Source of the DNA: Candidatus Vampirococcus lugosii
Lineage (GTDB): Bacteria > Patescibacteriota > Gracilibacteria > Absconditabacterales > Absconditicoccaceae
Length of the DNA stretch: 11,676 nucleotides
Reading direction: 5' to 3'
Assembly (NCBI RefSeq): GCF_018420025.1
Contig: NZ_JAEDAM010000038.1
Location: 1-11,676, forward strand
The notes beneath the pieces were generated by a model that was given only the letters and a program-made list of their open reading frames with translations, ran no database searches and had not been told where the DNA came from. Below are positions 141 through 11,676 of the stretch, one piece after another; position 1 is the first letter of the stretch; every line of letters starts with the position of its first letter. Position numbers and translations under genes: made by a program.

Positions 141-347
141 ATGTCAAAAAACGATGCTCCCAATAGCTTCCATGGAAGGGAAGTTATCGAATCCAGAACT
201 GGCAATGCAAAAACAATTGTCAGCAATACTGACCGAACCAGGGATCCTGGTAAAGGTTCCACCGACAAGGTACACCAAACCGACAAGGGTCACACTACTG
301 TGCATCCAGATGGTAAGGTCAATTCCCACGGAAACCACGGAAAGTAG
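141..347 (+). CDS. Small hydrophilic hypothetical protein (68 aa, His/Gly/Lys/Thr/Asp-rich); family not recognised
   Basis: ATG at 141 follows an SD, TAG stop at 345-347, and a strong hairpin terminator lies directly downstream. There is no in-frame TGA; all 8 glycines are GGN codons. The region is much more GC-rich than the rest of the window. It has an internal near-repeat, accgacaaggtacac (261-275) and accgacaagggtcac (279-293), giving TDKVH / TDKGH. Two other standard-code ORFs overlap it (154..366 +, 144..338 -), as expected for any GC-rich patch, so coding status is not certain. Confidence 0.45.
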   Translation: MSKNDAPNSFHGREVIESRTGNAKTIVSNTDRTRDPGKGSTDKVHQTDKGHTTVHPDGKVNSHGNHGK

Positions 348-1118: not shown

Positions 1119-1358
1119 TTAATGGACTTTATCTTTTGGAGGACAAGGATCATTTCAAGGTGCAACTGTATCAGAATCGTTTATTTTTCAATTTTTTGAA
1201 TGAATTTTAACTTCTCATCATCAAGAATTTTCACACATTTTTTTGGCTAATTTTTCAGCTTCTTTTTTTGTGGAAATATTTATTTTACTATATTTTTTAG
1301 ATCATTCTTTTTTGATTTTGTATTTTCAAGTTTTTCAAGATAGGTGATAATTTGTCAT
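1119..1358 (-). CDS. DUF2188-like small protein, 79 aa (table 25)
   Basis: Translation is MTNYHLSGKTGKYKIKKEGSKKYSKINISTKKEAEKLAKKMCENSGGGEVKIHSKNGKINDSDTVAPGNDPCPPKDKVH*. It matches the DUF2188 pattern as I recall it: W/YxVkxeG...f.Tk.eAi..A..la...g.e..iH..dG.I...d....DP.PPkD. It contains three consecutive TGA codons (1215-1223) read as GGG. It starts 25 nt after the upstream HEPN gene stop. Confidence 0.7.
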
Positions 1359-1383
1359 TTTTAGTATTTTTTAGTTTATAAAA

Positions 1384-2133
1384 TTAATTTAAAGGAAATT
1401 TTTCTTTAACTTCTTTTATTAACTGATTAACAAATAAAAAAGTTTCAAGATATTCTCAGGTATCAATTTTTAAATCATCTGATTTATTATGAGCTAAAAT
1501 ATTTCTATAATTTTTAAAAGTTCAAAGTAATAATTTGTATAATCATTCTTTTTTAGACTTTCAATCTGTTGTAGTTAAATCAATTCAAGTTATTTTTAGT
1601 TTTGGATTTGTAAAAATAGCTTCAACTGCATCTCATTCTTTCTTTTCTCAAGATAATCAAATCTTATTATGGTAATCTTTAAGATAAATACTTAAATAAT
1701 TTAATATTTCTCTCAAATAAACTCAATAATCTTTTGTTTTTAGTCAATTAAAAAAGAACTTTTTAATATCATTATCAAGTGTTTTTCAAATTTCTTTATA
1801 AATTAAATCTCAAAAATTATTCTCTTTTACTACTTCATTTTTTACTTCTTTCTTGTCAACTCTAGGATCATTTTTTACATCGTCAGGAACTCATAATCTC
1901 ACTAATAAATCTTCATATTTATCTGAATGATTTCTTTCAAAGGAATTTAACAAACTATAAAAAAACTCAACATCATTTTTATTTTGATATTGTCCTAATA
2001 CTACATCAGTAAATCTTGTAGGATTTTCAAGTTTTAATTCATCAAAAAAACTTAATCTATCAGGCATAGTATAAAATCATGGGTATTGTCATGATAAATA
2101 CAAAGCTATCCAATGATTTTGAGTTTTATCCAT
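1384..2133 (-). CDS. HEPN-domain protein of the TIGR02391 / Hypoth_Ymh type, 249 aa (table 25)
   Basis: The C-terminal region reads ...GLSGEKKEGDAVEAIF...TDGKSKKEGLYKLLLGTFKNYRNILAHNKSDDLKIDTGEYLETFLFVNQLIKEV. It contains the HEPN Rx4-6H motif as R-N-I-L-A-H (1489-1506), in the context typical of the Ymh family (..eG...l..G....RNp.AH....i...ea......s.L). The N-terminal roughly 110 aa are not recognised. Length is 750 nt, a multiple of 3, with a TAA stop. Confidence 0.65.
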
Positions 2134-2200
2134 AATTTAAGAATTGGAAGTAAATTATTTCATGATATTATACTATTTTTTGGGATTTTTCGCAAAAAAG

Positions 2201-3983
2201 TTAAGAGTTTTTATTTATTCATAAAAAAATTTCTAATTTATCTGAAAACAAATCTTCAGTTATTTGAAAATTTTCTTTGTTTATATGTTTCCATATTTGA
2301 AAAGGGTTTTTATCATCTTTTTCATATCAAATAACCGTTTCAAGTTTTTTTATATTAAAATGAATATTATTTTCTCAAGATTCATTTATAAGATTCCAAT
2401 TATTTGTAATTATTGGTTTATTTTCTGCATTTTTATATTCATTTCATTTTTTCATATCTTCTAGTGTTTCATATTTTTTTAATTTTCAAACTAGCTCTTT
2501 ATCATCTAGATCTAAATCAGTTATTATAAAACAATCTATTTCAAACCATTTACATAATTTTATAAGCAATAAAGCTGTAGTTTTTCAATGATGTGGAATT
2601 ATTGAAATATTATGAAAATTTAAATATGTTTCAGCATATTTTTCTTTATTTTCAATATCTGAACTTTCTTCAATATTTCCTAAAACCTTTTTATTTATTA
2701 CATGATTATAAACCATTAAATCATTTGGTCATTCAACAAGTATAACTTTTTTACTAAACAATATTTTGTTTAAATTTGGTTCAATATTTTTAATAAAACT
2801 ATTATATTCATTTAATCCAATATTATCTGGCTCTTGAATTTTATTATATTTTTTAATAGTTCATTTTGCTTCATCATGTTCAAGTCTTATTATTCATTTG
2901 GTATCAAACATATCAATCATTTTATCAGAATGAGTTGTATATATTACTTGATGTCATTTTTCAGTTAATCAACAAAGAACCATTTTATAAAAATATTCTT
3001 GATGATTTTCATGTAAAAAGCTTTCAGGCTCTTCAAATAAAAATAAACATTTATCATCTTCTTCTGTTTCAGCTATTGCTTGAATTACTGCCATTACAAA
3101 CATTGAAATATAACCATCTCAAAAATGATCTATTGGAATTAAATTTTTATCATTTCAATTAAGTCATATTTTAAACATCATTTGCAGAAAAATATCTTCA
3201 TAATCCGGTAATCAAAAATCTATTTTACAAGCTGTATTTCTAAGATTATTTTTATAATTATTTTGAATTTTTTCTATAAAATTTTGTAATTTAGTTTTAT
3301 TGTTTTCTTTTTTATCTTCTTCTCAATTTAAAACTTTTTTAGTAGCATTAGATATTTCATCTTTAAAATTATCTTTTCTTTCTTTCATTGATTCATCAGT
3401 TTTAACAAGTTTATCAATATGTTTTCCTAAAAATGATTTTAGATTTCCCCAACTTGTTTTTTGAGTAGATATTTCATTTTTTATATTATGAAAATTTATA
3501 TAATAAATAGGTGCTTTTTGTTTTATTGACCATTTTTTACCATAACTTGAACTTTCTCAATAACAATTACAAGTGTCACTTACAGATTTTATTGAATCAT
3601 TTTCAATATTAATTTTTATTGTATTTTTATAAAATTTATTATCTTCTATTTTATTATCTCATAATCAACAAGTTGCAAATTCTAATTCAAAAAAAGGTAG
3701 ATTATTCCAATCTTGGTTATGAAAATCTTTTATATCAAAAGTATCTTCTCTAACTGATTCATATAATCAATATTTTATAGCATTTAGTAAATTTGTTTTT
3801 CAAGCATTATTATATCAAATAATAGCAACTGGTTTTTTTATAAGTTTTATCTGGAAATTCAAAAATTTCTGCTTCATTATTATCTTCATTTTCATACAAA
3901 GGAAAATCAAAGTCTTCTTGTCTTATTCAAAAAGACCTATAATTTTTTACTTTAATATTTTTGATTCTTATTTTAACTGGCAT
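2201..3983 (-). CDS. OLD-family nuclease (N-terminal ABC/AAA_15-type ATPase plus C-terminal TOPRIM), roughly 590 aa; reading frame broken by 1 nt in a homopolymer at 3833-3839 (longest intact ORF 2201..3895)
   Basis: Frame A from the ATG at 3983 gives MPVKIRIKNIKVKNYRSFGIRQEDFDFP...FPDKTYKK, the typical IKN(F/Y)RSF N-terminal strand. The body, in the adjacent frame, gives PVAIIGYNNAGKTNLLNAIKYGL, with the Walker A GxxxxGKT at 3794-3817 and both Gly encoded by TGA. It continues HFGDGYISMFVMAVIQAIA (signature-like), CLFLFEEPESFLH (Walker B/D-loop), KVILVEGPNDL (TOPRIM E-G, 2729-2734) and IIPHHGKTTALL...CFIITDLDLDD (TOPRIM DxD). I verified the body line by line as open from 3841 to the TAA at 2201-2203. 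Confidence 0.85.
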
Positions 3984-4008
3984 AAAAAAACCTTATTAAA
4001 CTTTAAAA

Positions 4009-4197
4009 CTATAAATACCTCATCAAAAACCCCTCCTTCAACTCCTTCGCACCTTCAACAATTTTTCTATTTTCCTCAATTTTTTTCTCAATTTCTTCAA
4101 TTTGTGAAACAATTTCTTTTTGCTTTTCCAAAGAAGTAAGTGGGATTTGTAAAGTTTTTAAATATCTTTTAATTCTTTTTCTATATCTAACCAAGAT
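4009..4197 (-). pseudogene. Remnant of the C-terminus of an HsdS-like specificity subunit or domain (about 60 aa, no proper start)
   Basis: The stop-to-stop frame reads I(L)VRYRKRIKRYLKTLQIPLTSLEKQKEIVSQIEEIEKKIEENRKIVEGAKELKEGFLMRYL*. This is the classic TRD-to-conserved-helix junction of HsdS (IP(L/P)PxLxEQxxIVxxLxxxxxxI...L...kqglLq.l). It is bounded upstream by TAA at 4198-4200, has only a TTG as a possible start, and overlaps the 3' end of the endonuclease gene by 40 nt in another frame. Confidence 0.55.
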
Positions 4198-5084
4198 TTA
4201 GTAGTTAAAGGATGTTTTTGTTTGATTTCTTGTATTTTTTGTTTTATACTTTCATTATGATAATTTAATTCTTCCTCTAATTTCTCTATTCTCATCTTTT
4301 GTTTTATTATCCTTTTGTATAATTGATTATTTTTATCTTCTGCTATTTTTAGTAGTGATAATTTTTTAATAAATTCATCATTAAATATATCTTCATCAAG
4401 ATATTCATTAAAATTTTCATTTATTAAGTTTTTTATTTCATTTTTAGGAACTGGAAAATCATAACAAAGTTGTCATTCCATTCTTTGATTTACAAAAGGT
4501 CTATTTGATTTAAAAAAATTCAATCATTTTAAGTCATAAGATCAAGTTAAAAGGTCTATCATTAATATTAAGGTTATTTTTCAATTATATGCACAAGATT
4601 TTGAAAGTTGATCAATATTTCATTTTTTTATTGAAAAAATTCATTTTGAAGCAGATTTTAATTCTAATAAAAACTCTTTTCAATTATTTAATTTAATTAT
4701 ATAATCAGGTTGTGTAGTTTTACTTCAATATATTTCAATTTGATTTTTATCGTTTATAAAAAAATCGTGTTTACTATCATCACCAAATCATTCTATCAAA
4801 TTAATACTTAAATTTTTAGATAATAAATAAAAAAGTAAATCCTCCAAAAACCAACCATAAAGCATATTTCTTCAATATGTTATTGGGGATCTTCACATTG
4901 CTCATCATTTAAATTTATAACCTTTATTTATATATTCTTGTAATAACTTATATTTATCATAGTTTTCTTTCTCTATTTTTTCAAATTTATTTTTTCATAT
5001 TAAATCAGAAAATATTGTTTGATATCTAGATGAAATTTCAACAAACTCCATTTCGTCCAATCTTTTTTCTTCAAAGTTAAACAT
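4158..5084 (-). CDS. Putative type II restriction endonuclease (PD-(D/E)xK-like core plus C-terminal coiled coil), 308 aa (table 25)
   Basis: It lies 26 nt downstream of the C5-MTase on the same strand. The translation contains ...YGWFLEDLLFY...GFGDDSKHDFF...TTQPDYIIKLNNGKEFLLELKSASKG..., a PD-x15-E-L-K arrangement at 4656-4709. The last roughly 90 aa are Lys/Glu-rich heptad-like sequence (KIAEDKNNQLYKRIIKQKMRIEKLEEELNYHNESIKQKIQEIKQK). No specific REase family was recognised. I verified it line by line as open, 927 nt, with a TAA stop. Confidence 0.55.
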
Positions 5085-5110
5085 AATTAAATATTGTTAA
5101 ATTAGTTAAA

Positions 5111-6220
5111 TTAAGCTACTGTAAATAATTCCCTTTCTTTAAATTTGTTTTCTTTAAATCATTTAATATGATTTTTATAATTTGGCATTGTTCAAAGTAA
5201 AGAAGAAATTAATTTAGGAGGAACTCATTCTCATATTACTTGTCTAATTAAATTTTCACTTGCCCAATTTGGAAAAGATATATTATCAGGCAATCAAGTA
5301 AGAATAAAAATTTCTTTTAAACTTAAAACTCTAGCATCTGAATATGTTCAATCACTTTTTTTTCTTCAAGGATGAACATTATTTTGACTAGATACTCATC
5401 AATTACACATTGTAATAGTAGGAGCAGGTTTATCCCAATTAATTCTTTTATAAGTTGTTCTATATCATTTTATAGTTTCTCAATTTTCTTTTTGAGGATA
5501 ATATATTTTATTATCAAATGCAGTTTTTCAAGTTGGAGTATGTCTCATCCATAATATATGTTTATCATTATGTTTTTTAGCAAAATGATAAGGTATATGT
5601 GATTTTTCTCAACTTTCCAAACTTGGCAAATATCATATCGCCTCTTGAACTGTTATTTGTTTTTGTTTTTTCGGAAAATCCCATAATGGGATAGGTTTTT
5701 TTGTTAATATCGCAATAGCTCTTTTTCTTATTTGAGCTGTTCAATAATCTCAAGCATCTAATATTGATTTATTGATATTATATATTTTTGATAATTCCTT
5801 ATCTAAATAATCTGAAATTATAATTTCTTTTCAATCTATAATCAATTTTGTTTTAAAAAAAGATGGAACATTTTCTAATATAACATAATCAGGTTTTAAA
5901 TCTTTAATAAAATTTACTGCTTTAACTACAAGATTATTTCTTGGATCATCTTGTTGCCTTTTTCAAGCAAAAGACATTCATTGACAAGGAGGTGTTGCAA
6001 TTAAAAACTTACACTTTTTATCAATAGCACTTTTCAAAACTTTATTATAAATATTTTCATCTGTAATATCTCAACAAATCATATTAGAATTAGGATAAAA
6101 TCGTGAATATAAATCAGCTCTTTTAGGTATTAACTCATTAGCAACTTTTATATCAATTCAAAAATTATTTAAATAAAAATCTGATATTCAAACATTAGAA
6201 AACAAAGATACTCAATTCAT
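5111..6220 (-). CDS. DNA (cytosine-5)-methyltransferase, 369 aa (table 25)
   Basis: Canonical C5-MTase motifs appear in order: I VSLFSNVGISDF (degenerate FxGxG), IV ATPPCQGMSFAGKR (catalytic Cys; PPCQG at 5978-5992), VI YVILENVPSF (5867-5875), VIII GTAQIRKRAI, a TRD with TYKRINWDKPAPTIT, IX ARVLSLKEIFILTGLPD, and X RQVIGEGVPPKL. I count 23 in-frame TGAs and no GGN codon at all in this gene. I verified it line by line, 1110 nt, with a TAA stop. Confidence 0.93.
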
Positions 6221-6231
6221 TTTAAATAAAA

Positions 6232-7221
6232 TTAAATTATAAAATATAACACATCTTCTCAAAGAAATTTTTTCATTCAAACACTATAAAGTTTTTGCAG
6301 TCTATCTTGCAAAGAAAAAGGATCATCATAAGCCTTTCACTTCCAATAAAAACTTAAATCTTTTGAGTTATCTTTTTCATCAACTACCTTGCACAAAAAT
6401 AAATTTACAAGTTTATCAAAAGCATTTTCTCTTCAACTTACATTATGTTGTCTTAAAATCGTTGCAAATTCATGGTATTTTCAAGCAATATCTTTTGAGG
6501 AAACAGTTTTTAAGTCGTCAGTCGAAAATTTATTTTTTCAAATATCATAAGCTCTAGCATTTTCAAAAAGTCAAAGTCTAGCATATTCCTGGTCATAAGT
6601 ATCAACCCAAACTTTATAAATTTCTTCTACACTTGTTGCATCTCTGAAAGATTTTAATTTTGAATTATTTTTTAGTAAATCTTCATTGTCTTTCAAAGAT
6701 ATAAGATAATATTCTGGTCTTACTTCATTATCTACAAAATCACTTGCATAAAGAGCTATAAACTCTGTTGATTTTGCTTGTTGAGCATAAGAAAATATTT
6801 GAGTTGGTTTAGTTTGAGCTTGTTTCCAAGCATTATTAAATTCTCACACGGCAGTTTTACATTCAATAATTAAATAAGAATTTCATAAGTTGTTTTTTAC
6901 CAAAACATCAGCCTTTCATCAACTTGCACCGTGTCATACTTGCCATTTTGGTTCAAGTTCAATATGTTTTGGATTATATCATTGTTCAAGTAATCTATTT
7001 ACACATTCAAAAACTACAAAATTTTCTGGAGCTTTAAAATTACTTATAGTTCTATCATTTATTTTTAATCAAGAATTTTCTGGATAAACAAGTTTTTCAT
7101 TTTGAAAATCTACTTCTAAATTACAATCAAAGTTTTCAAATTTTTTAGAAAAATAATTTTCTTTAATTTCTTGAAAGTTTAGTTTTTTTAAAACCTCTTT
7201 AAGATTTTGTTTTGTTATCAT
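6232..7221 (-). CDS. Truncated RM protein: HSDR_N-type PD-(D/E)xK-like N-terminal domain plus HsdM-type N-terminal helical domain, with no methyltransferase catalytic domain, 329 aa (table 25)
   Basis: The translation has ...ELEPKWQVGHGASGGKADVLVKNNLGNSYLIIECKTAVGEF..IFSYAQQ, the HSDR_N-like D-x14-E-C-K at 6856-6909. It then has ...YHEFATILRQHNVSGRENAFDKLVNLFLCKVVDEKDNSKDLSFYWKGKAYDDPFSLQDRLQKLYSVGMKKFLGEDVLYFII*. That pattern precedes the AdoMet-binding domain in N6-adenine RM methylases. The ORF stops (TAA 6232-6234) before any FxGxG or NPPY/F catalytic motif, 11 nt upstream of the C5-MTase start. Confidence 0.7.
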
Positions 7222-7500
7222 TAATTAATTTTTTTTATATAAAAACACTTATAATACTAGCTTTTTTGGACAAAAAATCAAATATAATAAAATTAACAAG
7301 ATAATTATTTTTTATTTTTTCACAAATCATTAGTTTATTTTCAAATTAAAAAATTATACTTTATAATAATTAGTTTCTCATTTTTTTCAATCAAAAAACT
7401 ATAATTTATATTTTACTAAATTAACAAATTTTAAATTGACTTTTTAAATAAAAAAAATAAATAATAACTATATTTTTATTTAATTAAATTATAAAAAATT
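7222..7500. promoter_or_regulatory. Divergent AT-rich intergenic region, presumed to carry promoters for the minus-strand defence operon and the plus-strand surface-protein gene
   Basis: This 279-bp non-coding spacer lies between divergently oriented starts at 7221 (-) and 7501 (+). TATAAT-like and TTGAC-like strings are present, but such strings are expected by chance at this composition, so no individual box is called. Confidence 0.3.
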
Positions 7501-10500
7501 ATGAAAAAAATATTTTTGTTTTTATTTTTTATTCTATTTACAAATTTTTCTTATTGAAATTGAGTTGATATAAATTCTTGATTATCGGATCAAGCATTAG
7601 AATGAGTTCAATGATTTGCAAAAGATAGTGAATGAAATGTTTATGTTTGAGTTGCTAATGTAAAATGAAATTGACTTTATAAATTTGATTTTGATAATAA
7701 TTCTTGGGAAAAAATAATTTGATCACCGACATATTGATCTACAAGAAAACCTGAAATTATTCAATGAAGTGATTGAAATGATTATTTATTCTCTAGATCT
7801 CATATTTTAAATTTGTCAGATATTGAATCTGGTTGGTATAGTCCTAAAAAAATACCTGATAAAATTATTGATAAATATGATCCAGAAGAATACAAAGAAG
7901 CAAAAAGACTAAAATCACATTTGTATATGCAATTTGTTAGAGCTTGAGAATGAAGATTTTTGTTGGCAACAAGGAAATGATGAAATCCTATTATTTTGGC
8001 TTATGATCCAGTAAATCAAGAATGGGAAGACTTAAATTTTCCATATAAAGATTTGGATGGCAAACCTCATATCACACTTACAGAAATAGATTGAGTAGTT
8101 TTTTATAAAAGTAATTATTCTTGACTTTTTGCTTATCAAAATTGAATTTGGAACAGAATTACTCATAACAGAAGAGTTTTTAGATGAGAAACAAAATCAG
8201 AACATTCTTCTATGGCTTTTGGTTGGAATTGAAATAAAGATGATAGAGAAATTTATTATTCATATACTCCGATAAATGCAACACAAATCACAAGTGATAA
8301 ATTATTAAAAATGAATTGATATACTTTTAGTGAAAAAACTTCTGGTAAATGGGAAATTAGAGATAATTGATGAAGATTTGCAGAACATGTTTTGATAGAT
8401 TCTTCTTGGAAAGAATACAATAAATGATCTTGATATTGATTTTCTTGTAGACCACTACTTGATATAGCATATTGTATAGATGGTAGATTTTGATGATATT
8501 TTAAATTAGATAATTGAATATCTCAAATTCCAGATTATACTAATTGACTTTGATTAAATTTATGAAATACTTCATTATGAGTTAGAAGCAGTATAACTAA
8601 TGGAAATGATATATTTTTATTGATTAGATATAATTGAAAACAAACTATCAGAAAAATGACTTTTGATAAAAATGAAAATTGACAAATTGCAACTAATTTT
8701 GATAGTAATTACTCTTCTTATCTTGATTTTATATCTCCAAAATGATGAGCAATTTTGGAAAATTGAGATATTTTAATTTGATGAAATTTGAATAATAAAT
8801 CTTATTTATTTAGATATTCAAAAGATTATGAACAAAAAGATAAATATTTATTAACTTGAGATTTGGTACATATACAATGAAGTATAAATAATAAATATAC
8901 TTGAATTCTTACTACCGAAAAACTTTATTTATATGAAAATTGAAAAAAAATTTGGACTAGTGATATGAGTTGAAAATGAATTAAAGTAAATGATTACAAT
9001 AATGATAAACAACAAAAAAATCGTATTTCTGTATGAAATAATTGAAAAATTGCTATTTTGTATAATAAAAATATTGCTGTATTTCAAGATTGAAAAAGTA
9101 TTTTTGAAGAATATTTTGATAAAACCTATACTAATGATATAGCAATAGATAGTGATAAAAATAATATTTATGTTACTGGTTATCAACAATTTAATAATTT
9201 ACAAGTAGCTGTAATTTTTGCTTATGAAATTTGAAAAGAATGAATAATTTGGGATACTTGGAATTTCAATAAAAATGAACTTTCTGAAACTGAAAATATG
9301 GCTGATACTAGATGATATAGAATACAAATTTGACAAAATTGAGATTTATATTTTGCTGGTGAATCTGCTGGATGAAATACTATTTTTAGATGGAATTGAA
9401 AAAATTTAAAAACTTGAACTTTAAATGGGTGAGATATGTATAATGCATCTTGGTGAATAAGTGGTGCGGCTCATTTGTGATATTTATGAAGAATAGATAC
9501 TGATACTTGAGAAGTAAAACAATGACAAATTATAGTACCGAGATTGTCAAATTGAAATTGAAACACTTTTAGATCAAAAAATTGAGAAATAAATATTGAT
9601 AAAGATTGAAATGTAATTTTTATGGCTATATCTGCTTGTTGTGGACCAAATAGAGATTTTTTGTCAATAAATTGAGAAAGACTTGGTAAATATAGTTGAT
9701 GAGATAATATACTTTATATAACTGATAAAACTTTGAACGAAAGAATTCTTTGGACAAGTTTATCTGCTAATTTGGAATGACAAGAACAATGAAAATCCGT
9801 TTCTAGATGAGTTTTGGTTTGAGATGATATTTTTTATATTTTGAATGAAGTTGAAGAATGAGAAGTTTTTACTACTGATAATGCAAATATTTCTTCAAGA
9901 GATAAAGAATTACAAGCACAATTATTGGAAGTAATTTTACCATGATCCGAAAATCCTTGAAAAGATGAAAATTTTGAAGAAAAAGATCAAAAATCTATTA
10001 TGATAGATGAAATTTCTGTTAAAGATTCTATTAATTATAATGATAATTTTTTGGATATTGATATTCAACTTTTGGATGTAAATAAATTTGATAAACTTGA
10101 AATTTATTTAAAAAATAAAAATGATGATTTATTTGAACAAAAGAATATTTCTTTGGAAAAAAATCAAAATAATTTATCTATAAAATTGGAACTTAATTGA
10201 TTATATGATTATAATCAAGATCAATTAAAATTGGAAATAAATGTTTTTGATAATGATTTATCGGAATATAGTGATATGAAATTGATTAATATAACTTTCA
10301 ATTGAGAAGAAAAAGAAGAAAAAGAAGAAAAAGAAGAAAAAGAAGAAAAAGAAGAAAAAGAAGAAAAAAAATATGAAATAAAATTTGATTTAGAGCCACA
10401 AGGTTTAAATTTGGAAATAAAAGATAAAGATTGAAATATAATTGATTGAGAAAATAATAATTTTTGTATAAATTCTCTTTGAGATTTAGTTAAAAACTAT

Positions 10501-11676
10501 AATAAAGAAACAAGTGTAGTAAATAATTATGAAGAATTAAAAAATGCAATAAATATAGCTAATAATCGTTCAAATAAAGATAAATGGTATGAAATAATTA
10601 TTAAAAAATGAAATTATAATTTAAAAAATTGATTTAAAGTTAATTGAGATAAAATAATTTTTAGATGAGAAACTGGAAATCCAGAAGATGTAATATTAAA
10701 CTGAAAATGAATGAATTGATCAATATCTCATTGATTTTGGATATTATGAAATGATATTATCATATGAGATATGAGTATAGGGAAAGTAGCAAATCATGCA
10801 ATTCAAATTCATTGAGAAAAAGATGCAGATAATTTTTGGCTTTATAATTCAAAAATTTTTGATACTTGAGAACAAATGATAAAATGATCTTATGCAAACA
10901 ATGATTATTGAACAGATAATTGAATTATACAATGTAGTAAATTTGAATATACTGCTTGAATTTGACCACAATTTTATATATGATGAATAGATGTGCATTT
11001 TTGAAAAAATTGGATAATAAAGGATAATATCTTTAAAAATATAATAAGTCCAGAAAAAAAATTAGCTGAACATGCAATACATTTTTGGTCAAATAGTAAA
11101 TGAACAACAGTAAAAAGAAATAAAATATATAATTGCGATAGATGAATATGATTTTGAATGTGATCAAAAGCAAATAAATGACATAAATGATGAATAATAA
11201 TTGACAATATTATTTATACTAATTCTAATAAATGAGATGTTTGAATATGATTAGAAAACTCATATTGAACAGAAGTATTGAATAATACAATTTTTTTGGA
11301 TAATAAATATCAAAATGCTATAGAATATCGTTTTTCTTGAACAAAAGATGTAATAATAAAAAACAATTTGACAAATAAACTTATAAAAAGTAGAAATTCT
11401 TGAAAAGCAAAACTTGAAAATAATATTAATAATGCAGAAAAAAAATGGTTTAAATCAGTTGATAATTATAATTTTGATTTAAATGAAGAATATAAAAATT
11501 CATTAAAATTAGATTGAATATGAGCAAATACATTTAATAATCTTTATAATTTGAAAAATTGAGAATATACTTATATTGCAAGCTTAACTTGATATATTGA
11601 AAAACAAAATAATTTTGTAGTTGACTGAAAAAATAAAGAAATAATAATTAAACTACAAAAAGAAATAGAAAAAGAA
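7501..11676 (+). CDS. Very large secreted or surface protein (3' partial, at least 1392 aa): signal peptide, beta-propeller-like repeats, (EEK)7 linker, right-handed parallel beta-helix-like C-terminal region (table 25)
   Basis: The ATG at 7501 gives MKKIFLFLFFILFTNFSYG.., a Sec-type signal peptide. The frame is open to the window end when TGA is sense (4176 nt, a multiple of 3). The N-terminal part has recurring D/NxxGN(I/V)Y(V/F) strand motifs: DSEGNVYVGV, DGNDYLFS, DSDKNNIYVTGY, QNGDLYFAGESAGGN, DKDGNVIFMAIS. These resemble SBBP/NHL-style propeller blades. After the EEK repeat comes YEELKNAINIANN...YEIIIKKGNYNL...IIFRGETGNPEDVILNGKG...ANHAIQIHG...NSKIFDTGEQ...NKIYNCDRGIGFG...GGIIIDNIIY...IGLENSYGTEVLNNTIF, typical of PbH1 / pectate-lyase-fold beta-helix coils. 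Confidence 0.85.
10306..10368 (+). repeat. Perfect tandem repeat (GAAGAAAAA)x7, in frame, encoding (Glu-Glu-Lys)7
   Basis: Seven exact 9-bp units were read directly from the sequence. They lie in frame with the 7501 ORF (10306-7501 = 2805, a multiple of 3) and are followed by AAA TAT. Confidence 0.95.

What the first reader, a model, noticed from the sequence alone, without database searches (positions are those of the whole stretch)
1119..3983. Candidate three-gene defence cassette: OLD-family ATPase/TOPRIM nuclease + Ymh-type HEPN protein + DUF2188
Three co-directional genes are separated by only 67 and 25 nt and sit directly downstream of RM genes. The first is a fused ABC-ATPase/TOPRIM (OLD) protein. 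The second carries a HEPN Rx4H motif (RNILAH) in a TIGR02391/Hypoth_Ymh-like context behind an unrecognised roughly 110-aa N-terminal domain. The third is a small DUF2188 protein. Known OLD-containing systems pair the OLD or OLD-like ATPase with a UvrD-like helicase (Gabija), a separate DUF4435 TOPRIM protein (PARIS) or retron components, or it acts alone (P2 Old). I do not recognise OLD + HEPN + DUF2188 as a named system. The logic is attractive: an ATPase/DNA-nuclease sensor coupled to a predicted HEPN RNase effector would resemble an abortive-infection design. The small third protein could be an antitoxin or regulator. This is inference from domain content and synteny only.
Basis: inference. 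Interest (0 to 1): 0.8.

Follow-up and report, generated by a model that had tools for sequence, protein, structure and literature searches.

The report
Defence-island neighbours, not a three-gene system
Three real anti-phage-type genes (an OLD nuclease, a HEPN RNase-type protein and a small DUF2188 protein) lie side by side in a Vampirococcus defence island, but their relatives elsewhere never travel together, so they look like separate modules left over from a decayed restriction-modification operon, not one new system.

Summary
The window is a whole contig of Candidatus Vampirococcus lugosii, where TGA codes for Gly. On the minus strand it carries an OLD ATPase/TOPRIM gene, a Ymh-type HEPN gene with an RNILAH motif, and a DUF2188 gene, separated by 67 and 25 nt. 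The OLD frameshift is one extra A in an A7 run. An independent assembly has A6 and an intact 593-aa ORF.

The interpretation as a three-gene system is not supported.
- Across 69 OLD orthologue loci plus the closest relative, no partner recurs downstream, and Ymh and DUF2188 each occur in at most one locus. The recurrent context is type I R-M, with hsdS directly upstream.
- About ten other contexts of the HEPN protein's family lack both OLD and DUF2188. These genes mostly sit next to R-M genes.
- DUF2188 (PADLOC PDC-S16) turns up in unrelated defence operons, including CBASS-like and type I R-M operons.

The HEPN protein looks self-contained. Its conserved 92-aa N-terminal domain is fused elsewhere to a second HEPN variant, a PD-(D/E)xK nuclease fold or a TIR domain.

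Best reading: independent cargo modules of an eroded R-M island. Interest is low to moderate. The swappable N-terminal domain is the most original by-product.

The parts
2201..3983 (-). OLD-family ABC-ATPase/TOPRIM nuclease gene. It encodes 593 aa once one A is removed from the A7 run. Class 1-like: single polypeptide, no helicase, RT or separate TOPRIM partner.
   Evidence: Pfam AAA_15, AAA_21 and OLD-like_TOPRIM; PADLOC 'Old' 3.7e-37 against best GajA 6.9e-25. The best solved relative is Thermus scotoductus class 1 OLD, 6p74, at 1.3e-15, against GajA at 1e-8. Walker A K62, Walker B E317/E318, H351, TOPRIM E417 and D489/D491 are invariant in 25 orthologues.
3833..3839 (-). A7 homopolymer that causes the +1 frameshift in OLD. 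It separates codons 1-50 from the rest of the gene.
   Evidence: Three-frame translation and sequence. The independent assembly L010 has A6 here and an intact ORF, and is otherwise identical over 2,718 bp.
3794..3817 (-). Walker A motif GYNNAGKT. Two of its glycines are encoded by TGA.
2510..2761 (-). TOPRIM domain of OLD (residues 408-491), with the catalytic E417 and the DxD at 489-491.
   Evidence: Pfam PF20469, 3.6e-13; invariant columns; coordinates.
1384..2133 (-). 249-aa two-domain protein: a conserved N-terminal domain plus a Ymh-type HEPN domain. NCBI annotates it as a TIGR02391 family protein.
   Evidence: Pfam PF09509 at 29 bits (cut-off 25); weaker hits to HEPN_RiboL-PSP and MAE_28990; PADLOC PD-Lambda-3_B at 3.9e-5 and Aga_HEPN at 5.6e-4.
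1858..2133 (-). N-terminal domain, residues 1-92, all-helical. It is a swappable module fused elsewhere to other effector domains.
   Evidence: Alignment A4. AF2 pLDDT is 72-89 over residues 1-90. No Pfam hit. Alternative fusions.
1489..1506 (-). HEPN R-x4-H motif RNILAH (residues 210-215).
   Evidence: H215 is invariant in the full 21-row alignment, which also contains the non-HEPN fusions. The Arg of the motif is present in the 13 HEPN-bearing rows: RNILAH, RNILFH, RNILSH or RNPSAH. Coordinates.
2134..2200 (-). 67-nt spacer between OLD and the HEPN gene. It contains a promoter-like TTGCGA-17-TATAAT.
   Evidence: One search gives a 10/12 match, but promoter-like sites are not enriched over shuffles. 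A TATAAT-like box about 35-40 nt upstream of the ATG recurs in homologous loci that have different upstream genes. This is weak evidence.
1119..1358 (-). 79-aa DUF2188 protein, equivalent to the PADLOC single-gene defence candidate PDC-S16.
   Evidence: Pfam PF09954 at 1.1e-11; PADLOC PDC-S16 at 5e-17. At least 1,222 homologues, many about 80 aa long and 55-65% identical.
4009..4197 (-). Probable remnant of an hsdS (type I specificity subunit) conserved region, directly upstream of OLD.
   Evidence: Pfam Methylase_S at 0.0034, below threshold. The better BLASTP hits in the local ORF set (E 6e-5 to 0.09) are all the ~350-560-aa genes lying directly upstream of OLD orthologues, of the kind that score as HsdS (Methylase_S). 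OLD orthologues commonly follow hsdS.
4158..6220 (-). Type II R-M pair: a C5 cytosine methyltransferase (5111-6220) and a 308-aa ORF (4158-5084) carrying a PD...ELK motif, a putative restriction endonuclease.
   Evidence: DNA_methylase at 5e-49. The 308-aa ORF has no family hit, so its nuclease assignment rests on the motif only (inference).
6232..7224 (-). Truncated type IIG R-M gene. Only the N-terminal ~325 aa of a ~1,270-aa enzyme are present.
   Evidence: PADLOC REase_MTase_IIG at 1e-147, covering profile positions 1-324 of 1271.

Best explanation
The three genes are independent single-gene defence modules that have accumulated at the 3' end of a decaying restriction-modification locus in Ca. 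Vampirococcus lugosii. They may be co-transcribed, but they are not a dedicated three-component system.

1. The OLD gene belongs to a tightly conserved, horizontally mobile, class 1-like subfamily whose usual home is just downstream of hsdS in type I R-M operons. By analogy with P2 Old and Thermus OLD, it would act as an ATP-dependent DNA nuclease. This function is inferred.

2. The second gene encodes a self-contained Abi-type protein. Its conserved N-terminal domain would act as a sensor or adaptor, and its Ymh-family HEPN domain would act as an RNase that cuts cellular or phage RNA once triggered. This is inferred from the R-x4-H motif and from HEPN family precedent.

3. DUF2188 is a promiscuous small defence-island protein of unknown activity. 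It appears next to many different effectors, so it is unlikely to be a dedicated antitoxin for this HEPN protein.

Shown: domain identities, the intact catalytic motifs, the lack of recurrent co-occurrence, and the R-M association. Inferred: all biochemical activities and the abortive-infection logic.
For: - OLD orthologues have no fixed downstream partner. Among 124 downstream proteins from the OLD orthologue loci that have downstream sequence, the commonest Pfam family occurs 4 times, and Ymh and DUF2188 occur at most once each. phmmer found none.
- The OLD context is R-M. Among the 76 proteins of at least 150 aa at positions -1 and -2 (standard-code loci), 13 hit Methylase_S and 10 hit HsdM. 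At least 19 of 69 loci have type I subunits within 6 kb. The closest relative shows hsdS-OLD-Fic, and the window keeps an hsdS remnant directly upstream of OLD.
- The HEPN gene family sits after hsdS (L004) or after hsdR (L005, L094), next to type IIG plus HsdS (L001) or a C5 methyltransferase (L006), and never with OLD or DUF2188. This matches the published Ymh description, 'in operon with R-M' (PMC3710099).
- The N-terminal domain is modular. The same domain is fused to two HEPN variants, to a PD-(D/E)xK fold (Foldseek MspJI 5e-4) and to a CAP12/Pycsar-type TIR domain. This is the signature of one-protein sensor-effector Abi genes.
- DUF2188 homologues lie in CBASS-like operons (S24 peptidase, DUF2188, CD-NTase), in a type I R-M operon, and next to Fic/AbiEii. 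The literature also links the family to diverse defence operons (bioRxiv 10.1101/2022.04.27.489752).
Against: - The three genes are co-directional with 67- and 25-nt spacers and no predicted terminator between them, so co-transcription and functional cross-talk remain possible.
- The sample of HEPN-family contexts is small (about ten), and many contigs are short.
- No experiment exists for any of the three proteins.
- The HEPN call rests on a modest Pfam score plus the motif. The AF2 model of that domain has low confidence, and Foldseek gave no significant match.
Confidence: 0.75

Rival explanations
1. One reading: a dedicated three-component abortive-infection system. OLD is the ATPase/DNA sensor, the Ymh-HEPN protein is the RNase effector, and DUF2188 is an antitoxin or regulator.
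For: Tight co-directional arrangement with 67- and 25-nt spacers. All three families are defence-associated. ABC-ATPase plus HEPN is a known logic in PrrC/RloC (PMC3710099).
Against: No recurrence: none of the OLD orthologue loci carry the trio, with Ymh and DUF2188 each in at most 1 of 124 downstream proteins. None of about ten HEPN-family contexts has OLD or DUF2188. None of four DUF2188 contexts has OLD or Ymh. The HEPN gene seems to carry its own promoter-like box, and its domain architecture is that of stand-alone Abi proteins.
Confidence: 0.07
2. A lineage-specific two-gene partnership: either HEPN toxin plus DUF2188 antitoxin, or OLD plus HEPN, newly formed in Vampirococcus and therefore invisible to synteny analysis.
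For: The 25-nt spacing between HEPN and DUF2188 and the small size of DUF2188 resemble toxin-antitoxin layouts. HEPN toxins often need a neutraliser (general knowledge of HEPN-MNT and RnlAB).
Against: Orthologous HEPN genes at 72-85% identity exist without any DUF2188 neighbour (L001, L005, L006, L009), so the protein is tolerated without it. DUF2188 at 55-65% identity serves in CBASS-like and R-M contexts.
Confidence: 0.1
3. A decaying, non-functional island: OLD is a frameshifted pseudogene and its neighbours are relics.
For: The deposited record has the A7 frameshift. The type IIG gene is truncated and hsdS is reduced to a remnant.
Against: An independent assembly has A6 and an intact 593-aa ORF. 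All catalytic residues of OLD and the HEPN R-x4-H motif are intact. The HEPN and DUF2188 ORFs are full length.
Confidence: 0.08

Closest known systems
Class 1 OLD nucleases (P2 Old; Thermus scotoductus OLD, PDB 6p74; E. coli YbjD)
   Same: [quoted passage not shown] Walker A/B, the TOPRIM Glu and the DxD are intact. There is no helicase, RT or separate TOPRIM partner. The best PADLOC model is 'Old' and the best solved relative is 6p74.
   Different: Class 1 OLDs are described as isolated single genes away from defence genes (PMC10568477). This subfamily is often embedded in type I R-M operons, just after hsdS. Activity is untested.
Gabija (GajA/GajB), PARIS (AriA/AriB) and retron-OLD systems
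   Same: The OLD-type ATPase/TOPRIM core is shared; GajA and AriA models give secondary hits.
   Different: No UvrD-like GajB, no DUF4435 AriB and no RT or ncRNA in the window. GajA scores are far below the 'Old' model.
Ymh (PF09509/TIGR02391) HEPN family and AbiJ-type NTD-HEPN proteins (Anantharaman et al. 2013, PMC3710099)
   Same: A C-terminal Ymh HEPN domain with R-x4-H, an alpha-helical N-terminal domain, and a location in or next to R-M operons. The N-terminal domain's fusion partners (Ymh HEPN, restriction-endonuclease fold, flavodoxin/TIR-like fold) overlap those reported for AbiJ-NTD1.
   Different: The N-terminal domain matches no Pfam model, including AbiJ_NTD3/4/5. Identity with AbiJ-NTD1 could not be tested. 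So far the family was seen mostly in TGA-recoded, low-GC CPR-type contigs, plus two contigs (L092, L093) that do not look TGA-recoded.
PrrC/RloC anticodon nucleases in type I R-M loci
   Same: A HEPN RNase kept next to a type I R-M system together with an ABC-type ATPase, proposed as a second line of defence (PMC3710099).
   Different: In PrrC/RloC the ATPase and HEPN are fused in one protein and are conserved together. Here they are separate genes that do not co-occur elsewhere.
DUF2188 / PADLOC PDC-S16
   Same: Full-length match at 45 bits in Pfam and 5e-17 for PDC-S16, in a defence-island location.
   Different: Nothing distinctive. Its function is unknown in every setting.

Membership tests
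OLD family nuclease | N-terminal ABC-type ATPase with Walker A, Walker B and H-loop | tested here: met
   AAA_15 9e-18 and AAA_21 6e-14. GYNNAGKT, LFLFEEPE and TTHS are present, and K62, E317/E318 and H351 are invariant in 25 orthologues.
OLD family nuclease | C-terminal TOPRIM domain with a conserved Glu and DxD | tested here: met
   PF20469 at 3.6e-13, residues 408-491; E417, D489 and D491 invariant.
OLD family nuclease | ATP-dependent nuclease activity | not testable with these tools
   Needs biochemistry.
Class 1 OLD (context-based class) | No adjacent UvrD-like helicase, retron RT/ncRNA or separate DUF4435 TOPRIM gene | tested here: met
   All window ORFs were scanned and none of these was found. 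No Rfam hit. Best PDB relative is the class 1 TsOLD.
Class 1 OLD (context-based class) | Stand-alone gene not proximal to other defence genes, as the review states | tested here: not met
   The gene lies in a defence island here. At least 19 of 69 orthologue loci have type I R-M subunits within 6 kb.
Gabija | GajA paired with the UvrD-like helicase GajB | tested here: not met
   No helicase gene in the window. Among the 124 downstream neighbours of up to 450 aa, no family recurs more than 4 times and none of the recurring families is a helicase. Larger downstream genes were not scanned.
Ymh / TIGR02391 HEPN | Match to the family model above its curated threshold | tested here: inconclusive
   Pfam PF09509 scores 29.0 against a cut-off of 25, so it passes. 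NCBIfam TIGR02391 scores 26.3 against 39.45, so it fails.
Ymh / TIGR02391 HEPN | Conserved R-x4-H catalytic motif in a C-terminal helical domain | tested here: met
   RNILAH at residues 210-215. The Arg is present in the 13 HEPN-bearing homologues and H215 is invariant in the whole alignment. The region is predicted all-helical.
Ymh / TIGR02391 HEPN | HEPN four-helix fold | tested here: inconclusive
   The AF2 model has pLDDT 40-78 in this domain. Foldseek gave only non-significant HEPN hits: 2hsb, AbiV and Csm6', all with E above 6.
Ymh / TIGR02391 HEPN | RNase activity | not testable with these tools
   Needs biochemistry.
DUF2188 (PF09954) / PDC-S16 | Full-length match to the family model | tested here: met
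   45.2 bits against a cut-off of 22, covering profile positions 1-62 of 62; PDC-S16 at 5e-17.
Proposed OLD+HEPN+DUF2188 three-gene system | Recurrent co-occurrence of the three families in unrelated genomes | tested here: not met
   Never seen together in the OLD orthologue loci, in about ten contexts of the HEPN protein's family, or in four DUF2188 contexts. The only repeat is the same organism.

The most novel reading that the evidence does not exclude
The evidence does not exclude that Vampirococcus has wired the three neighbours into a lineage-specific circuit. For example, OLD activity or DNA damage might trigger the HEPN RNase, with DUF2188 as a modulator.

More solidly, the 92-aa N-terminal domain of the HEPN protein defines an undescribed family of one-protein sensor-effector Abi genes, seen mostly in code-25 CPR-type contigs. 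One conserved N-terminal domain is combined with HEPN, PD-(D/E)xK or TIR effectors and parked at the ends of R-M operons.
Probability: 0.1. Interest if true: 0.6.

Novelty: new member of a known kind. Interest (0 to 1): 0.27.

Why it matters
The cassette as proposed would have been a new OLD-based defence system. The synteny test shows it is instead an ordinary defence-island juxtaposition, which saves an expensive recoding and phage-challenge experiment on the wrong hypothesis.

Useful by-products:
1. The OLD 'pseudogene' in the deposited genome is probably an assembly or homopolymer artefact, or a phase variant.
2. This OLD subfamily is habitually embedded in type I R-M operons. That qualifies the textbook picture of class 1 OLDs as isolated genes and suggests R-M-coupled function.
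3. A swappable N-terminal domain links HEPN, restriction-endonuclease-fold and TIR effectors in CPR bacteria, a group once thought poor in defence systems.
4. DUF2188 recurs between an S24 peptidase and a CD-NTase in CBASS-like operons, which hints at a regulatory role that could be tested.

Tried and rejected
- Table 11 ORF calling gave only fragments, so I switched to TGA read-through. Table 4 (TGA=Trp) was rejected because TGA codons align with Gly in orthologues.
- Sequence search of the HEPN protein and DUF2188 against PDB found nothing meaningful.
- Pfam on the isolated N-terminal domain and on the PD-(D/E)xK-type C-terminus gave no hits. The nuclease fold was later supported by Foldseek.
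- A viral-contig scan for the HEPN/N-terminal-domain family found no relatives. The metagenome scan added only 6 new loci.
- Promoter and terminator scans were not enriched over shuffles in this 21% GC DNA, so they count only as weak support.
- tRNA and Rfam scans of the window found nothing.
- Direct similarity between the window's hsdS remnant and the hsdS of the closest OLD relative was not significant. The remnant does, however, hit many other HsdS-type proteins.
- Burroughs & Aravind 2020 on DUF2188 could not be retrieved.
Full report
**Source and genetic code**

The window is the complete 11,676-bp contig of Candidatus Vampirococcus lugosii, an Absconditabacteria-related CPR predator. 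The exact proteins are in NCBI under that name, on a contig of this length.

GC content is about 21%. Under table 11 there are no long ORFs. Reading TGA as sense gives a compact gene map. Of the 23 TGA codons in the OLD gene, 17 align with a majority Gly in 24 orthologues, including the Walker A glycines, whereas TGG aligns with Trp. This fits the published reassignment of UGA to Gly in this organism (PMC8080830).

**Checking the observation**

Three genes lie on the minus strand:
- OLD, 3983..2201.
- A 249-aa protein, 2133..1384.
- A 79-aa protein, 1358..1119.
- The spacers are 67 and 25 nt.

- OLD matches AAA_15, AAA_21 and OLD-like TOPRIM. Its best PADLOC model is 'Old' (3.7e-37), well ahead of any GajA model. 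Its closest solved relative is the class 1 Thermus scotoductus OLD, 6p74.
- The OLD Walker A Lys, Walker B acidic pair, H-loop His, TOPRIM Glu and DxD are invariant across 25 orthologues.
- The second protein passes the Pfam Hypoth_Ymh threshold (29 bits against 25) but not the stricter TIGR02391 threshold. It carries RNILAH at residues 210-215. The His is invariant in the whole alignment, and the Arg is present in the 13 HEPN-bearing homologues.
- The third protein is a full-length DUF2188 (45 bits) and matches the PADLOC single-gene candidate PDC-S16.

The OLD frameshift is a +1 shift inside an A7 run at 3833-3839. An independent Logan assembly (L010) is identical to the window over 2,718 bp except that it has A6 there, and it encodes an intact 593-aa OLD. 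The 'pseudogene' is therefore most likely an assembly or homopolymer error, or a phase variant.

**Surroundings**

Upstream, on the same strand, the window carries:
- The first ~325 aa of a ~1,270-aa type IIG R-M enzyme (PADLOC 1e-147).
- A C5 methyltransferase (5e-49).
- A 308-aa ORF with a PD...ELK motif and no family hit.
- A 62-aa reading frame directly before OLD. Its better hits in my local ORF set (E 6e-5 to 0.09) are all the ~350-560-aa genes lying directly upstream of OLD orthologues, of the kind that score as HsdS. Pfam Methylase_S scores 0.0034.

All seven minus-strand genes from 1119 to 7224 are tightly packed. Close co-directional spacing is therefore the local norm and not a sign of a dedicated operon.

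**Test 1: neighbours of OLD orthologues**

This OLD belongs to a strikingly conserved subfamily, 50-67% identical across Bacteroidota, Bacillota, Patescibacteria and other groups. I fetched 69 genomic loci, called genes in each (TGA-recoded where needed), and scanned 124 downstream proteins against Pfam.
- No family occurs more than 4 times. The commonest are RhuM, PDDEXK_4 and Schlafen/AlbA_2.
- Hypoth_Ymh and DUF2188 each occur at most once.
- phmmer with the window's own proteins found neither family in any locus.

Upstream the picture is different. Among 76 scanned upstream proteins, 13 hit Methylase_S and 10 hit HsdM. At least 19 of 69 loci carry type I subunits within 6 kb. The closest non-self relative (67% identity, also a recoded organism) shows hsdS-OLD-Fic. 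The ancestral layout is thus hsdS-OLD followed by variable cargo, and the window's hsdS remnant fits that layout.

**Test 2: neighbours of the HEPN protein's relatives**

Only 22 homologues exist in 5.8 billion clusters, mostly from TGA-recoded, low-GC CPR-type contigs. Their contexts are:
- hsdR-GHKL ATPase-hsdM-hsdS-HEPN (L004).
- hsdR-HEPN-Panacea toxin-antitoxin (L005).
- Type IIG-AAA_15-HsdS...HEPN-Panacea toxin-antitoxin (L001).
- HEPN-C5 methyltransferase (L006).
- HEPN-Panacea toxin-antitoxin (L009).
- A non-defence context (L002).
- hsdR-NTD/nuclease-GHKL ATPase (L094).
- Fic-NTD/TIR (L093), and others.

None has OLD or DUF2188. This matches the published description of Ymh as 'in operon with R-M', sometimes with paraMORC GHKL ATPases (PMC3710099). 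A TATAAT-like box about 35-40 nt upstream of the start codon travels with the gene into different contexts. This hints at an own promoter, but the evidence is weak in such AT-rich DNA.

**Test 3: neighbours of DUF2188 relatives**

Homologues of about 80 aa at 55-78% identity lie in four kinds of context:
- Next to Fic/AbiEii (L080).
- Inside a type I R-M operon, next to PDC-S42 (L082).
- Between a LexA-like S24 peptidase and a CD-NTase with a TIR effector (L084-86).
- Between an S24 peptidase and a CD-NTase with a Cap15 effector (L087-89).

The literature likewise reports DUF2188 in assorted defence operons with HTH/peptidase regulators and cyclases, and as a putative Thoeris-island effector. 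DUF2188 is promiscuous and not tied to OLD or Ymh.

**Anatomy of the HEPN protein**

Residues 1-92 form a highly conserved all-helical domain (AF2 pLDDT 72-89) with no Pfam match. The same domain is fused to four alternative C-termini:
- The window's Ymh-HEPN (RNILAH).
- A second Ymh-HEPN variant (RNPSAH).
- An alpha/beta domain whose model hits MspJI (5e-4), EcoT38I, Avs4, Can2 and Shedu nucleases, that is, a PD-(D/E)xK fold.
- A CAP12/Pycsar-type TIR domain (PF10137, 26.6 bits).

These fusions are documented. This is the classic architecture of one-protein sensor-effector Abi genes. It also mirrors the partner list given for AbiJ-NTD1 in Anantharaman et al., although I could not test homology to that domain. 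The architecture argues that the gene is self-sufficient.

**Mechanism (inferred)**

The island most likely arose from a type I or type IIG R-M operon that carried OLD and an Abi-type HEPN gene as cargo, and whose R-M core has since eroded.
- OLD would act as an ATP-dependent DNA nuclease, like P2 Old and TsOLD (PMC10568477).
- The HEPN protein would be held inactive until its N-terminal domain senses a phage cue, possibly interference with R-M as in PrrC, and would then cleave RNA.
- The role of DUF2188 is unknown.
- None of these activities has been shown.

**Comparison and verdict**

The locus is not Gabija, PARIS or a retron, because the partners that define those systems are absent. No named system combines these three families, but the reason appears to be that the combination is a one-off.

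I rate the finding as new members of known kinds in a defence island, and the three-gene system hypothesis as about 7% likely. The swappable N-terminal domain and the S24-DUF2188-CD-NTase arrangement are the items most worth a follow-up.

Noticed in passing
window 1858-2133 (-); also L004, L092, L093, L094, L096, P0013, P0016-P0022: The 92-aa N-terminal domain of the HEPN protein is a swappable module. It is fused to two Ymh-HEPN variants, to a PD-(D/E)xK nuclease fold and to a CAP12/Pycsar-type TIR domain. It was seen mostly in TGA-recoded CPR-type contigs (L092 and L093 do not look recoded) and matches no Pfam model.
   Followed up: partly
L084-L089 (DUF2188 at 5001-5243 in L084-L086, 625-867 in L087/L089, 514-756 in L088); L082 5001-5234: DUF2188/PDC-S16 homologues sit between a LexA-like S24 peptidase and a CD-NTase in two different CBASS-like operons, one with a TIR effector and one with a Cap15 effector. 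Another sits inside a type I R-M operon next to PDC-S42. This suggests a regulatory or accessory role across defence systems.
   Followed up: partly
window 3833-3839 (-): The OLD frameshift is a single extra A in a homopolymer: A7 here, A6 in an independent assembly of the same organism. NCBI annotates a 553-aa N-terminally truncated OLD as a result. It could be an assembly error or phase variation.
   Followed up: yes
window 6232-7224 (-): Only the N-terminal ~325 aa of a ~1,270-aa type IIG restriction-modification enzyme are present. The ORF stops where a C5 methyltransferase gene begins, as if a type II R-M pair had replaced the rest of the gene.
   Followed up: partly
window 4158-5084 (-): A 308-aa ORF downstream of the C5 methyltransferase has no family hit in Pfam, NCBIfam or PADLOC but carries a PD-x12-ELK motif. 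It may be an undescribed cognate restriction endonuclease.
   Followed up: no
window 4009-4197 (-): A 62-aa frame directly upstream of OLD resembles the conserved region of HsdS subunits. It appears to be a relic of the hsdS-OLD arrangement seen in OLD orthologues.
   Followed up: yes
69 OLD orthologue loci (L011-L079) and L097: This class 1-like OLD subfamily is frequently embedded in type I R-M operons: an HsdS gene lies within the two genes upstream in up to 13 of the scanned loci, and type I subunits lie within 6 kb in at least 19 of 69. This is at odds with the review statement that class 1 OLDs are isolated genes away from defence loci.
   Followed up: partly
window 141-347 (+), hairpin 367-394: A 68-aa Gly/His/Lys/Thr-rich ORF has a strong Shine-Dalgarno sequence and a clean hairpin terminator. 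Local GC is far above the genome average, and the ORF has no TGA codons although it has several Gly. No Pfam or Rfam match.
   Followed up: partly
window 7501-11676 (+): A very large ORF (over 1,390 aa, running off the contig) has a signal-peptide-like start, 123 TGA (Gly) codons and an (EEK)n repeat near 10290-10430. It is probably a surface protein and gave only a sub-threshold beta-propeller repeat hit.
   Followed up: no
L001 9156-10230; L005 4261-5320; L009 1278-2346: A SocA/Panacea-domain antitoxin plus a ~130-aa partner follows the HEPN gene in three related Gracilibacteria-type loci. This recurrent neighbour is absent from the window.
   Followed up: no
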